Assembly (NCBI RefSeq): GCF_003018255.1
Contig: NZ_CP027440.1
Direction: 5' to 3' (one strand)
From: Escherichia coli
GTDB lineage: Bacteria > Pseudomonadota > Gammaproteobacteria > Enterobacterales > Enterobacteriaceae
DNA length: 64,000 nt
Shown here in pieces: positions 15,001 to 18,000 of the stretch. The number at the start of each line of letters is the position of its first letter. Within the stretch, counting starts at the first letter, position 1. A program made the position numbers.

Positions 15001-18000
15001 CAGTATGGATGTTGAGCCGGGGTTGTACCGGGTGACGCTGAACACGGAAGGGTACGCGCCGTCATATGTGGGTGACATTCTGGTGAAGGCGGACTCTGCA
15101 CCGGGAACGCTGAATAAATTTCTGATGGACCTGGAGGACGCACAGTATTACCCGAAAGCCCTTGCAGAGCTGGAAGCGGTGGCCGCGGAAATCCTGAAAC
15201 GTGCGGAAGCGTCAGCGGCGAGTGCAGAGGAAGCGAAGAAACGGGCAGAGAATGCGCGGGGACCGAAGGGGGATAAGGGAGACACGGGGCCACAGGGTAT
15301 TCCCGGGCCAAAAGGCGATACCGGCGAGCGGGGGCCAAAGGGTGAGCGTGGTGAGGCAGGCCCACAGGGGGTACAGGGGCCGCGGGGTGAAAACGGCCCC
15401 GTGGGACCGCAAGGAGTGCCGGGTATTCAGGGGCCTGCTGGTCCTGCGGGCCCGCGAGGTGAAACCGGAGCCAGAGGCGAAAAAGGAGAGCCGGGAGATC
15501 CCGGAGGACCTCCGGGACCAAAAGGTGACACTGGCCCCAGAGGGGAGCCGGGGCCTCAGGGCCCGGCAGGTCCGAGGGGACCTGCCGGAGAGAGAGGGCC
15601 GCAAGGATTGCAGGGTGTGGCAGGGGAGAGAGGCGATACAGGTCCGGCTGGCCCACAGGGCGCTACCGGCCCCAGAGGACCACAGGGGGAAAAAGGGGGT
15701 AAAGGTGACCCCGGCCCGGCAGGTCCTGCCGGTGAGCGGGGGCCGCAAGGTGAGCGAGGTGCAACGGGCCCCGTGGGGCCGCAGGGGCCTGCGGGTCCTG
15801 CAGGGAAGTCTGCCAGCCTGGATGATATTGCCGACAAGGAGGCGTTTATTCGTAAGCTTGGGGTGGCAAGAGCTTACGGGCGTGATCTCAAAACAGGAGA
15901 AGGGGAGTGGACGACAGAAGAGTTCATCAACTGGCTGAAATCACAGGGTGCTTTTGAGGGCCCTTACTGGGTAATGACCACGACGCGGTTACTCAACAGT
16001 AACCGTGTGATCACGGATGTGGATACTGATTTGGGTAAGAAAAAAATCACCCTGAGAGGATGTGCCATTGAAGTGATGGGGTCATGGGAGAATGCGATAG
16101 TCCGGATCAGTGCAGGTGATGACCGGCCCTGGGATATGTTTTATGGCACGGACTGCACCTGCGTGGTCAGCGGCAGTATAAAGAGCTATGAGTGGCGGTT
16201 TAACTACACTTCCATCAGACGCCCCTCAACAGCGAAACTGGATGTGAACGGATGGGAGCGGGATGAGGCAACAGGAAGAATACGGCAATGGGGGCAGAAA
16301 CAAGTTGTCCGGCCAACCAGTGAAGGAGACACACATACCATCTATTTCCCGATAGCTTTTCCGTCAGCGGCGCTGAATGTCATTGTATCACCGGTAGGTT
16401 CACCGGGAAATTTCACGGGGTATGCCCTTTCAGAACCGTTGCTGAAGTCGGTAATACTGACGGTCAGTAAGGACACATACGGGCTGTTTTACTGGGAGGC
16501 CATTGGCTACTGAGGAGGGAGAATGGAACAGTATTTTTTTTCGCCATCAAATAATGCGTTTTATCCGGCCTCGCTTCGTTCGGTTTATGAGGCTGCCGGA
16601 AGCTGGCCGGAAGACAGTGTTGTTGTGGCGAGTGCCGTGTATAAGGTCTTTTCTGCCAGTGCAGCCCCGGCAGGAATGGAGAGGTGTGTGGGGCCGGAGA
16701 ATATGCCGATCTGGAGAGATGCGGGGCAACGATAAGCGGGGGAATGATGGTAAATATTAAAAACTTCATCTGGTATACGCCGGAAAATCCGGATGTGCCG
16801 GGGGCGATGTACCTGAAATCAGAGGATGGTCAGGACTGGTATGAGTGTCTGCCCTTGTTTTCGCCGGATACGCTGAAAGTGGTTTATAACAGTGCAGGGG
16901 TTATCACTGATATCAGCAGGGACGTACAGGCGCTGTGGCCAGCGAATCAGAGTATTGCGGAGGTGGCAGATACGGAAGAAAACCGCAAAGCTGATATCTC
17001 GGGGCGGTGGGGCTTTGACGGGGAGAAAATCACGGATCTGCTGACCGCGGAGAAAGCGCGCGGGATGAAGGGCGATGAAATAAACGCGTGGCGTAATGCG
17101 ATGGAGGCGGCGAACTACACGTTTGAGCACAATGGCCGGAAATGGGACTACGGGAAGTCAACGCAGACGCGTCTTGAGCCATCGGTGGCGGCAGCGAAAG
17201 CGGGGAAACTGCCAGAGGCGTTTTTCTGGACGGATGCGGAAAACAATGATGTGCCGGTGACAGCAGAAGAGCTTATTGCGCTGAGTGAAGCGGCAGAGCA
17301 GGCGATGTTCACCAAAGGGATGGAAATCCACATTCGCCAGCGCACCATGAAGAAGGACCTGGAATCGCTGAGCAGTGCGGATGAGATCCTGGCATACAGG
17401 GTTGGCTGGGCACAGGAATAACAGACAAAAAGATGGGGGACCATCACCTCCCCCATGAACTGCGTTGATTATGTCATTATTGTGAAGGTATTCACTATGC
17501 CGGGTAAATAGTGCCACGGAAAAGTTAATTCCGGAAGTGACGGAACTCTCATTTTTCGTGCATCCTGTTGATATGGATGATTTTTCATATTTCCGGAAGT
17601 CCGTATTTTGCCCGGGCGCGGTTGCATGCTTCATTCGCGATGCCATTTTCTCCGGACATTGCAAATTCCCGGCATGTGGACGGACGGTTTTTGTAAACAG
17701 AGCAATATGCGTTTTCACCCGGAGTTCCCGCCAGAGCGACACATCTGGGATTTTTCTGACTGGTGCCGCGCATACAGCGATGAAAGGGGGATATTTGCTC
17801 AGTGAGACTGACCGGAACCTTTCCGCCAGCATCGTCAGCTTCTGCCCAGTAAAAAGAGACGCGGAAAAATGCACAACAGGCACCACACGTCATGCATGGA
17901 TTCGGATTGTTCATTTTTATACTATTTGTTGTTTTTTCAGCGATCAGATCAAAGGACGCTGAAAAAAAACATTCTCCAAAATTAAATTATAACTATTTGA

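What the first reader, a model, noticed from the sequence alone, without database searches (positions are those of the whole stretch)
16523..17421. Possible split or frameshifted tail fibre assembly gene
A 70-aa ORF (16523..16735) begins 10 nt after the stf stop and overlaps the first 52 nt of the tfa ORF in a different frame. The Tfa-like protein is unusually long (225 aa) with a C-terminal half unlike typical Tfa. This could be a frameshifted ancestral gene, a programmed shift, or two fused chaperone domains.
Basis: inference. Interest (0 to 1): 0.3.

Follow-up and report, generated by a model that had tools for sequence, protein, structure and literature searches.

The report
Two intact tail-fibre chaperone genes
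What looked like one broken tail-fibre assembly gene in this E. coli prophage is two intact genes: a conserved 70-residue protein made only of the fibre-binding module of such chaperones, followed by an ordinary DUF4376-type fibre chaperone.

Summary
ORF1 (16523-16735, 70 aa) has its own strong Shine-Dalgarno sequence. It stays an intact 74-aa ORF in prophage alleles that are about 26% diverged in DNA. Its dN/dS is 0.12-0.19, against 0.9-2.1 in the other two frames. It is homologous only to the N-terminal ~66 residues of tail fibre assembly (Tfa) proteins. No C-terminal Tfa remnant exists in any frame downstream.

The ORF1-type module nearly always sits beside, or is fused to, fibres ending in a Gp53-like_C (R-pyocin-type) foot, which this Stf has. 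In other phages the module is fused to Caudo_TAP, Phage_tail_APC or DUF4376 C-domains. About one in five cluster representatives are stand-alone.

Best reading: a stand-alone "mini-Tfa" that binds the foot, working beside a complete chaperone. This is a modest variant of a known kind.

The parts
14855..16513 (+). stf, side tail fibre gene (552 aa): phage_tail_N + collagen repeats + Mu-S-like domain + Gp53-like_C foot
   Evidence: ORF. Pfam: phage_tail_N 1-134, Collagen, Gp53-like_C 473-552. PGAP annotates the RM10466 copy as a prophage tail fibre protein.
15806..16216 (+). Distal Stf domain homologous to phage Mu-type fibre protein S
   Evidence: phmmer to 8JU3_A residues 191-324, E 1.1e-14. 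BLASTP to Mu_3F6 S residues 185-326, 32% identity, E 2e-18. Boundaries are approximate.
16217..16510 (+). C-terminal foot of Stf (Gp53-like_C, R-pyocin fibre type), ending in ...FYWEAIGY
   Evidence: Pfam PF21882, 44.4 bits. phmmer to R1/R2 pyocin fibre chains 6CXB_A and 6CL5_A, E 1e-8 to 1e-7. Aligns to the foot of the L007 fibre, E 1e-8.
16512..16522 (+). Shine-Dalgarno region of ORF1 (GAGGAGGGAGA), immediately before the ATG
   Evidence: Read from the sequence. TGAGGAGGGATT is kept in L004 and L005.
16523..16735 (+). ORF1, 70 aa: stand-alone Tfa N-terminal (fibre-binding) module, here called a 'mini-Tfa'
   Evidence: phrog_19350 matched 70/70, E 7e-47, and phrog_188 Tfa, E 9e-15. dN/dS 0.12-0.19. 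AF2 pLDDT 92.9. Full-length Tfa relatives match it only over their residues 1-66.
16534..16541 (+). T8 homopolymer inside ORF1 codons 4-6, a likely indel hot spot
   Evidence: The database variant P0001 changes frame here.
16736..16743 (+). Short spacer with a GGGGGA Shine-Dalgarno-like motif between the ORF1 stop and the ORF2 start
   Evidence: Read from the sequence. In L003-L005 the two genes instead overlap by ATGA.
16744..17421 (+). ORF2, 225 aa (224 aa from ATG 16747): DUF4376-type tail fibre chaperone
   Evidence: PGAP 'DUF4376 domain-containing protein' WP_001373129.1. phrog_11571 matched 223/223, E 7e-147. 312 matches at E<=1e-5; full-length ones among the 120 listed are 219-236 aa. 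AF2 pLDDT 93.5.
16747..17040 (+). ORF2 N-domain, of the Mu U (TfaMu) type
17059..17379 (+). ORF2 DUF4376 domain (helical hairpins plus beta-hairpins)
15450..17025 (+). Exchangeable specificity cassette: distal Stf + ORF1 + ORF2 N-domain. It is diverged between alleles while its flanks are nearly identical.
   Evidence: Sliding identity of the window against L003: mostly above 90% (89-100%) before about 15450, 52-77% in all but one 75-nt window (91%) inside, and at least 96% from 17026 on. By domain: foot 57%, ORF1 72%, ORF2 N-domain 71%, ORF2 C-domain 100%.
17433..17456 (-). Terminator-like hairpin on the minus strand, downstream of the convergent ykgJ-family gene and just past the ORF2 stop

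Best explanation
The locus holds two separate, intact, translated genes downstream of stf. It is not one damaged gene.

ORF1 (70 aa) is a stand-alone copy of the N-terminal, fibre-recognising module found in one class of tail fibre assembly (Tfa) proteins. This module type goes with fibres whose tip is a Gp53-like_C (R-pyocin-type) foot, and this Stf has such a foot. ORF1 lacks the C-terminal assembly/multimerisation domain entirely. ORF2 (224-225 aa) is a complete two-domain chaperone: a Mu-U (TfaMu)-type N-domain plus a DUF4376 C-domain.

Inferred mechanism. During late expression ORF1 binds the folding or folded foot of the Stf trimer, as a mini-chaperone or cap. ORF2 supplies the oligomerising chaperone activity for the fibre, possibly engaging another part of the composite tip.

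Origin. The distal fibre, ORF1 and the ORF2 N-domain travel together as one exchangeable host-range cassette, while the DUF4376 domain is the conserved backbone. Historically, ORF1 probably derives from the 5' module of a module-DUF4376 chaperone gene of the P0060 kind, and has since been kept as a gene in its own right.

Shown here: gene integrity, selection, homology, domain folds and genomic association. Inferred: the physical binding partners and the division of labour.
For: ORF1 is a real gene.
- It has its own GAGGAGGGAGA Shine-Dalgarno sequence.
- It is an intact 74-aa ORF in three alleles (L003, L004, L005) that share 72-74% DNA identity with the window.
- dN/dS is 0.12-0.19 at dS 0.9-1.7, against 0.9-2.1 in the two control frames. 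ORF2's N-domain gives the same range, 0.13-0.17.
- AF2 predicts a compact fold, pLDDT 92.9.

ORF1 is the Tfa N-module only.
- It matches phrog_188 at E 9e-15 and Mu_3F6 U' residues 4-69 at E 2e-13.
- Thirteen full-length relatives match the window only over the ~65 residues of their ORF1-type module (residues 1-66 where the module is N-terminal), in ORF1's frame. Nothing else matches in any frame.
- Of 149 cluster representatives, 104 carry Caudo_TAP, 19 Phage_tail_APC and 8 DUF4376. Twenty-eight are stand-alone at 60-95 aa.

The module is associated with the foot.
- A fibre ending in Gp53-like_C lies directly upstream in L007, L008, L009, L011, L012, L021 (twice), L023 and Mu_3F6 S'v.
- The foot is fused to the module in P0032, P0043 and P0025.
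- Among E. coli stf loci, five with a foot have the small ORF. Three without a foot (L013, L014, L015) lack it but keep the DUF4376 gene.
- R-pyocin foot constructs need their cognate chaperones and co-purify with them (PMC6363177).

ORF2 is a standard chaperone.
- DUF4376 scores 65.5 bits.
- Of 312 matches, the full-length ones among the 120 listed are 219-236 aa.
- In Salmonella P2-like and Mu-like loci it is the gene right after the fibre gene.
- DUF4376 proteins are experimentally required fibre chaperones (PMC7289586, PMC7882524, PMC10579305).

Cassette structure.
Against: - No binding or expression data exist. Which protein contacts which fibre domain is inference.
- ORF1 fails the Pfam Caudo_TAP gathering threshold (13.5 bits against 22.1).
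- ORF1 lacks the conserved C-domain that the cited model (North et al. 2019, as summarised in PMC9608196 and PMC7882524) holds responsible for fibre oligomerisation. A chaperone role on its own is therefore not established.
- A few E. coli copies are disrupted. L006 has an 11-bp deletion and no annotated ORF. H105 is one base shorter. ORF1 is thus dispensable at least in resident prophages.
- The idea that the ORF2 N-domain recognises the Mu-S-like domain is weakened by L013. There a 70%-similar N-domain accompanies a fibre with neither the S-like domain nor the foot.
- The association counts are small and were hand-picked from the search results.
Confidence: 0.7

Rival explanations
1. ORF1 is a non-functional recombination scar. 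It would be the 5' end of an older tfa gene (module-Caudo_TAP or module-DUF4376) left behind when the downstream chaperone gene was swapped in. On this view it is still open only by chance or by recency.
For: - About 80% of relatives are longer and carry a C-domain.
- ORF1 ends exactly at the module boundary.
- P0060 shows the same module fused to a DUF4376 domain close to ORF2's.
- Some E. coli copies are disrupted.
Against: - dN/dS is 0.12-0.19 with synonymous divergence near saturation (dS 0.9-1.7), while the other frames give about 1-2.
- The ORF, its Shine-Dalgarno sequence and its tight coupling to ORF2 (ATGA overlap) are kept in diverged alleles.
- Stand-alone modules of 67-90 aa recur in unrelated phages as complete genes.
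- The predicted fold is confident.
Confidence: 0.13
2. ORF1 and ORF2 act as a two-chain chaperone. ORF1 would bind the foot and dock onto ORF2, borrowing ORF2's DUF4376 domain, so the pair functionally rebuilds a P0060-type module-DUF4376 chaperone.
For: - ORF1 and the ORF2 N-domain co-diverge inside one cassette.
- The genes are translationally coupled by an ATGA overlap in L003-L005.
- Single-chain module-DUF4376 proteins serve Gp53-like_C fibres in L021.
Against: - Stand-alone modules in L007 and L008 are followed by unrelated genes with no DUF4376-like partner.
- ORF2-type proteins work without any small ORF in L013 and L020.
- There is no interaction evidence.
Confidence: 0.2
3. A programmed -1 ribosomal frameshift near the end of ORF1 makes an ORF1-ORF2 fusion protein, in the manner of lambda G/GT.
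For: - The ORF2 frame is open for about 100 nt upstream of its ATG in all four alleles.
- L004 and L005 carry a canonical G_GGA_AAA heptamer just before the ORF1 stop.
Against: - The window and L003 have no slippery heptamer in the zone where both frames are open. The only one in the window (T_TTT_TTT at 16534) lies upstream of a stop in the target frame at 16642.
- About 33 stop-free codons is unremarkable by chance, roughly 0.2 for random sequence (my estimate).
- No fusion architecture appears among 149 ORF1 relatives or 120 ORF2 relatives, and none of the ORF2 relatives exceeds 236 aa.
- ORF2 has its own start codon and Shine-Dalgarno-like motif.
Confidence: 0.03
4. The two-ORF appearance is a sequencing or assembly indel in a single gene.
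For: - Homopolymers lie in or beside ORF1: a T8 run, a GTGTGTG stretch and a G5 run.
- One database variant, P0001, differs by frame changes at such runs.
Against: - Forty complete genomes share the junction at 99% identity or more.
- Diverged alleles keep the same two-ORF layout.
- ORF2 begins with its own complete N-domain, homologous from about residue 21 to TfaMu residue 27. No single reading frame could join them into a known protein.
Confidence: 0.01

Closest known systems
Phage Mu G-segment pairs S/U and S'/U' (seen here in Escherichia virus Mu_3F6, LR595867.1)
   Same: - The ORF2 N-domain is 47% identical to Mu_3F6 U.
- ORF1 is 33% identical to the N-part of U' (E 2e-13).
- The distal Stf domain matches S residues 185-326.
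- The Stf foot is the same Pfam family (Gp53-like_C) as the end of S'v.
   Different: - Mu keeps the two fibre ends and their two chaperones as alternatives switched by DNA inversion. Here an S-like domain and a foot sit in one polypeptide, and both recognition modules are encoded in tandem on one strand.
- U' has a Caudo_TAP C-domain, whereas ORF1 has none.
- U has a Caudo_TAP C-domain, whereas ORF2 has DUF4376.
TfaMu (Mu gpU), PDB 5YVQ chain B, and the two-domain Tfa model of North et al. 2019 (as cited in PMC9608196 and PMC7882524)
   Same: - The layout of a variable N-domain joined to a conserved C-domain matches the cassette boundary at about 17026.
   Different: - ORF2's C-domain is DUF4376. 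phmmer aligns only residues 21-106 of ORF2 to TfaMu.
DUF4376 fibre chaperones: Alteromonas phage V22 gp27 and A5 gp9; the Campylobacter CJIE1 H-fibre partner
   Same: - They have a C-terminal DUF4376 domain and are encoded next to the fibre gene.
- They are experimentally needed for functional fibres, or stay bound as a 'transient cap' (PMC7289586, PMC10579305, PMC7882524).
   Different: - Their N-domains differ from ORF2's.
- None of these papers mentions an extra small gene between the fibre gene and the chaperone gene, in the passages I read.
R-type pyocin fibre and chaperone (PA0620/PA0621; PLES_06171 and its chaperone)
   Same: - The Stf foot aligns to the R1/R2 fibre C-terminal domain (E 1e-8).
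- Those distal constructs need their cognate chaperone and co-purify with it (PMC6363177).
- A Pseudomonas phage fibre with this foot is followed by a Tfa carrying the ORF1-type module (L023).
   Different: - The pyocin and Pseudomonas-phage chaperones are full-length, with the module plus a C-domain. ORF1 is the module alone.
- I did not compare ORF1 with PA0621 directly.
P0060-type chaperone (196 aa) in a Mu-like invertible fibre segment (locus L021)
   Same: - Its residues 2-64 match ORF1 (E 1e-16).
- Its DUF4376 domain matches ORF2's C-domain (phmmer E 4.8e-42; tblastn E 4e-44).
- It follows fibre ends with Gp53-like_C.
   Different: It is a single polypeptide. In the window the two parts lie in different frames and are separated by a stop codon, a ribosome-binding site and about 300 nt that encode a TfaMu-type N-domain.

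Membership tests
Tail fibre assembly protein, Caudo_TAP (PF02413) - for ORF1 | Significant match to the family model (Pfam gathering score 22.1 bits) | tested here: not met
   13.5 bits, E 0.081, covering profile positions 3-55 only.
Tail fibre assembly protein, Caudo_TAP (PF02413) - for ORF1 | N-terminal fibre-binding module homologous to that of family members | tested here: met
   phrog_188 'tail fiber assembly protein', E 9e-15. Mu_3F6 U', E 2e-13. 104 of 149 relatives carry Caudo_TAP.
Tail fibre assembly protein, Caudo_TAP (PF02413) - for ORF1 | Conserved C-terminal (multimerisation/assembly) domain | tested here: not met
   ORF1 stops 6 residues after the module. The C-halves of 13 full-length relatives match nothing in any frame of 16400-17700.
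Tail fibre assembly protein, Caudo_TAP (PF02413) - for ORF1 | Encoded immediately downstream of the tail fibre gene | tested here: met
   The ATG is 10 nt after the stf stop. The position is the same in L003-L005, L007-L009 and L016.
Tail fibre assembly protein, Caudo_TAP (PF02413) - for ORF1 | Binds the fibre tip and is needed for fibre folding | not testable with these tools
   There is only indirect support: the association with Gp53-like_C fibres and the literature on pyocin chaperones.
DUF4376-type tail fibre chaperone - for ORF2 | C-terminal DUF4376 (PF14301) domain above the gathering score | tested here: met
   65.5 bits against 25, residues 106-212.
DUF4376-type tail fibre chaperone - for ORF2 | Separate variable N-terminal domain in a two-domain layout | tested here: met
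   [not shown]
DUF4376-type tail fibre chaperone - for ORF2 | Gene adjacent to and downstream of the fibre gene | tested here: met
   It is directly adjacent in L013, L014, L015 and L020. Here it is separated from stf only by ORF1.
DUF4376-type tail fibre chaperone - for ORF2 | Chaperone activity on the cognate fibre | not testable with these tools
   This has been shown for other DUF4376 proteins only (PMC7289586, PMC7882524).
Frameshifted pseudogene of a single tfa | Homology to one protein continues across the frame change | tested here: not met
   Canonical Tfa proteins match ORF1 only. ORF2 starts with its own complete N-domain. P0060 does match both parts, but about 300 nt of unrelated coding sequence lies between them.
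Frameshifted pseudogene of a single tfa | Relaxed selection, or an ORF broken in relatives | tested here: not met
   dN/dS is 0.12-0.19 and the ORF is intact in four diverged alleles.
Programmed -1 ribosomal frameshift (lambda G/GT type) | Slippery heptamer within the zone where both frames are open, conserved among relatives | tested here: not met
   None is present in the window or in L003. G_GGA_AAA occurs only in L004 and L005.
Programmed -1 ribosomal frameshift (lambda G/GT type) | Evidence for the fusion product | tested here: not met
   No fused architecture appears among the 149 + 120 relatives.

The most novel reading that the evidence does not exclude
Stand-alone ~70-residue 'mini-Tfa' proteins would form an unrecognised, widespread class of partners for Gp53-like/R-pyocin-type fibre feet. 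They would act as caps, co-chaperones or host-range modulators without the conserved oligomerisation domain that current Tfa models treat as essential. In this prophage, a composite fibre tip (a Mu-S-like domain plus a foot) would be serviced by two non-homologous recognition modules that share a single DUF4376 assembly domain.
Probability: 0.3. Interest if true: 0.5.

Novelty: new variant of a known kind. Interest (0 to 1): 0.33.

Why it matters
Tail-fibre tips and their chaperones set phage and tailocin host range, and they are the parts swapped when retargeting phages or pyocins. Retargeting fails if a needed helper gene is left out.

If the 70-aa protein is a required partner of Gp53-like/R-pyocin-type feet, it should be carried along with such fibres. 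Annotation pipelines would then be wrong to call it 'hypothetical protein' or to discard it as a fragment. It would also show that the fibre-recognition module of Tfa proteins can work apart from the assembly domain, which refines the two-domain Tfa model.

For the scan itself, the practical result is negative. There is no pseudogene, recoding event or assembly error here.

Tried and rejected
- The word-indexed protein search with ORF1 returned only two near-identical fragments. The exhaustive representative search was needed instead.
Association statistics therefore rest on hand-picked loci.
- North et al. 2019 and North & Davidson 2021 are not held in the library. Their model is cited second-hand from PMC9608196 and PMC7882524.
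- I first read the weak Caudo_TAP hits of both ORFs to profile positions 3-57 as evidence for paralogous N-domains. I rejected this: hhalign gives probability 0.5%, BLASTP aligns only 14 residues, and the predicted topologies differ.
- I tested whether the gene after other stand-alone modules is a hidden DUF4376-like chaperone. It is not. The L007 232-aa protein shows no similarity to ORF2, and the L008 86-aa protein looks like a small membrane protein.
- The idea that the ORF2 N-domain is specific for the Mu-S-like domain is left open, because L013 contradicts a strict pairing.
- The Rfam scan, the tandem-repeat scan and the promoter scan of the region added nothing.
- A literature search for truncated or short Tfa proteins found nothing relevant.
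Full report
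**Setting.** The window carries the tail end of a lambdoid E. coli prophage lying against potB/potA. The gene order is gpJ (10634-14371), a Hok-like ORF, stf (14855-16513), ORF1 (16523-16735), ORF2 (to 17421), a convergent ykgJ-family gene, then potB and potA. The 1.2-kb region around the finding is 100% identical to several Shiga-toxin-type E. coli genomes, such as RM10466. There PGAP annotates three separate, non-pseudo CDSs: the fibre, a 70-aa 'hypothetical protein' (WP_000438830.1, named 'tail fiber assembly protein' or 'phage tail protein' in other strains), and a 224-aa 'DUF4376 domain-containing protein'.

**Checking the observation.** The coordinates are correct. ORF1 starts 10 nt after the stf stop, behind GAGGAGGGAGA. 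The stated 52-nt overlap is true only for the longest mechanical ORF, which starts at GTG 16684. Both lie after ORF1's TAA (16733-16735) and behind a GGGGGA motif, so the two genes most likely do not overlap here. In diverged alleles they overlap by the 4-nt ATGA that is typical of coupled genes.

**ORF1 is a real gene.** Homologous prophages at the same potB site (L003, L004, L005) share only 72-74% DNA identity with the window across this stretch. All three keep an intact 74-aa ORF in the same place.
- Nei-Gojobori dN/dS over the 64 alignable codons is 0.12-0.19, with dS 0.9-1.7.
- The same nucleotides read in the other two frames give 0.9-2.1.
- The ORF2 N-domain gives 0.13-0.17.
- AlphaFold2, using 23 diverse relatives, gives a compact alpha/beta domain with mean pLDDT 92.9.

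A minority of E. coli copies are damaged, for example an 11-bp deletion in L006. That is expected for resident prophages.

**ORF1 is homologous to a Tfa N-module only.**
- It matches phrog_19350, a 70-aa family of unknown function, end to end. It also matches the N-part of phrog_188 'tail fiber assembly protein' at E 9e-15.
- An exhaustive search of 1.84 billion cluster representatives found 349 relatives. Of the best 149, 109 carry the ~65-residue module at the N-terminus followed by a C-domain. Twelve carry it internally or at the C-terminus. Twenty-eight are stand-alone proteins of 60-95 aa that end just after the conserved P-x-W motif.
- Pfam hits among these 149 are Caudo_TAP in 104, Phage_tail_APC in 19, DUF4376 in 8 and a fused Gp53-like_C in 6.
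- tblastn of 13 full-length relatives against 16400-17700 matched only their ORF1-type module (residues 1-66 where it is N-terminal), in ORF1's frame. No C-domain remnant appears in any frame. This excludes a frameshifted Caudo_TAP gene.

**ORF2 is an ordinary chaperone of a known alternative type.**
- It has DUF4376 at 65.5 bits and matches phrog_11571 over 223 of 223 positions.
- It has 312 matches at E<=1e-5; the full-length proteins among the 120 listed are 219-236 aa, from E. coli and Salmonella.
- Residues 21-106 align to Mu gpU (TfaMu, 5YVQ_B) at E 4.7e-15.
- In Salmonella P2-like and Mu-like loci this protein directly follows the fibre gene.
- DUF4376 proteins have been shown experimentally to be needed for functional fibres, or to stay on them as caps (PMC7289586, PMC7882524, PMC10579305).

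**No fusion or recoding.** None of the 149 ORF1 relatives contains a TfaMu-type domain. None of the 120 ORF2 relatives contains the ORF1 module or exceeds 236 aa. The ORF2 frame is open for about 100 nt upstream of its ATG in all four alleles, but the window and L003 have no slippery heptamer there. L004 and L005 do carry G_GGA_AAA just before the ORF1 stop. That is noted as a curiosity, and it is not conserved.

**What ORF1 goes with.** The distal part of Stf is composite. A domain homologous to Mu-type fibre protein S (8JU3_A residues 191-324, E 1e-14; Mu_3F6 S residues 185-326, E 2e-18) is followed by a Gp53-like_C foot homologous to the R1/R2 pyocin fibre end (E 1e-8).

In nearly every context I examined, the ORF1-type module accompanies such a foot; the two exceptions were uninformative (L010 and L022, with no identifiable foot-bearing fibre upstream).
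- Stand-alone modules follow foot-ended fibres in L007, L008 and L009.
- Full-length Tfa proteins follow foot-ended fibres in an Acinetobacter phage, in E. coli phage Bas97 and in a Pseudomonas phage.
- Both alternative fibre ends of a Mu-like invertible segment are followed by module-DUF4376 chaperones (L021).
- In Mu_3F6, S'v has the foot and is followed by U', whose N-part is 33% identical to ORF1.
- P0032, P0043 and P0025 are fusion proteins of foot and module.

Within E. coli stf loci, the five with a foot have the small ORF. Three without a foot (L013 at the same potB site, L014 and L015) lack it yet keep a DUF4376 gene. R-pyocin foot constructs require their cognate chaperones and co-purify with them (PMC6363177).

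**Cassette structure.** Between the window and L003, identity is mostly above 90% (89-100%) up to about 15450. It is 52-77% in all but one 75-nt window (91% at 16801-16875) from there to about 17025, a span covering the distal Stf, ORF1 and ORF2 codons 1-93. It is at least 96% from 17026 onward. At the protein level the figures are foot 57%, ORF1 72%, ORF2 N-domain 71% and ORF2 C-domain 100%. The right-hand breakpoint falls on the ORF2 domain boundary. This fits the published view of a variable fibre-binding N-domain joined to a conserved assembly C-domain (North et al. 2019, as summarised in PMC9608196 and PMC7882524).

**Likely history.** P0060 (196 aa) has the ORF1-type module fused directly to a DUF4376 domain close to ORF2's. 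Its matches to the window are E 1e-16 for ORF1 and E 4e-44 for the ORF2 C-domain. Relative to such a gene, the window looks as if a stop codon, a ribosome-binding site and a TfaMu-type N-domain were placed between the module and the DUF4376 domain. The split product has nonetheless been maintained by selection for a long time.

**Mechanism (inferred).** ORF1 binds the foot of the Stf trimer as a mini-chaperone or cap. ORF2 provides the oligomerising chaperone function. Whether ORF1 acts alone or docks on ORF2 is open. Acting alone is suggested by L007 and L008, where no second chaperone-like gene follows. Which surface the ORF2 N-domain recognises is also open, because L013 argues against strict pairing with the S-like domain.

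**Verdict.** The frameshift, pseudogene and recoding readings are rejected. The locus is a conserved two-gene chaperone set. Novelty is modest: a domain-minimal, stand-alone variant of a known chaperone family, currently annotated as hypothetical, with a clear and testable association to one fibre-tip type.

Noticed in passing
window 14570-14710 (+): A 46-aa Hok/Gef-like ORF lies between gpJ and stf. PGAP annotates the RM10466 equivalent as a 'Hok/Gef family protein'. The whole-window Rfam scan at gathering thresholds found no hok/sok RNA family.
   Followed up: partly
window 14855-16513: The collagen-like repeat region of stf varies in length between strains. It gives 552 aa here, 567 aa in RM10466 and 466-486 aa in L003-L005. 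TRF reports no tandem array at default settings.
   Followed up: partly
window 16534-16541: A T8 run sits inside ORF1 codons 4-6. A 79-aa database variant (P0001) differs from ORF1 by frame changes near its N-terminus (at this T8 run) and near its C-terminus. These are probably sequencing errors or slippage hot spots.
   Followed up: partly
L004 2734-2740 and L005 2734-2740: The mouse- and dog-strain alleles carry a canonical -1 slippery heptamer, G_GGA_AAA, directly before the small ORF's TGA and overlapping the DUF4376 gene's ATG. It is absent from the window and from L003.
   Followed up: partly
proteins P0004 (999 aa) and P0109 (1739 aa): These are giant proteins with tandem ORF1-type modules. 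P0004 has at least 8 copies and ends in a Caudo_TAP C-domain. P0109 has 5-6 module copies; the single LRR_5/LRR_8 hit in the set may also belong to it, but I did not check which member matched.
   Followed up: no
[not shown]
   Followed up: no
window 17585-17914 (-): A ykgJ-family cysteine-cluster gene follows the DUF4376 gene convergently. It appears to travel with the prophage arm, since it is also present where the prophage sits next to tRNA-Ser/hyaA (L014). It is a pseudogene in L004, L005 and L014. Its terminator-like hairpin is at 17456-17433.
   Followed up: partly
L024 (Escherichia virus Mu_3F6) 2230-5461: In this Mu-like G segment, the S/U pair and the S'v/U' pair use the two non-homologous chaperone N-module types that the window encodes in tandem. 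S'v ends in a Gp53-like_C foot.
   Followed up: yes
L013 (E. coli CB6837) 1379-3387: A prophage at the same potB site carries a collagen fibre with a short, unrelated tip. It has no small ORF and a 69-nt gap before a TfaMu-like/DUF4376 gene. The U-type N-domain is therefore not tied to the Mu-S-like fibre domain.
   Followed up: partly
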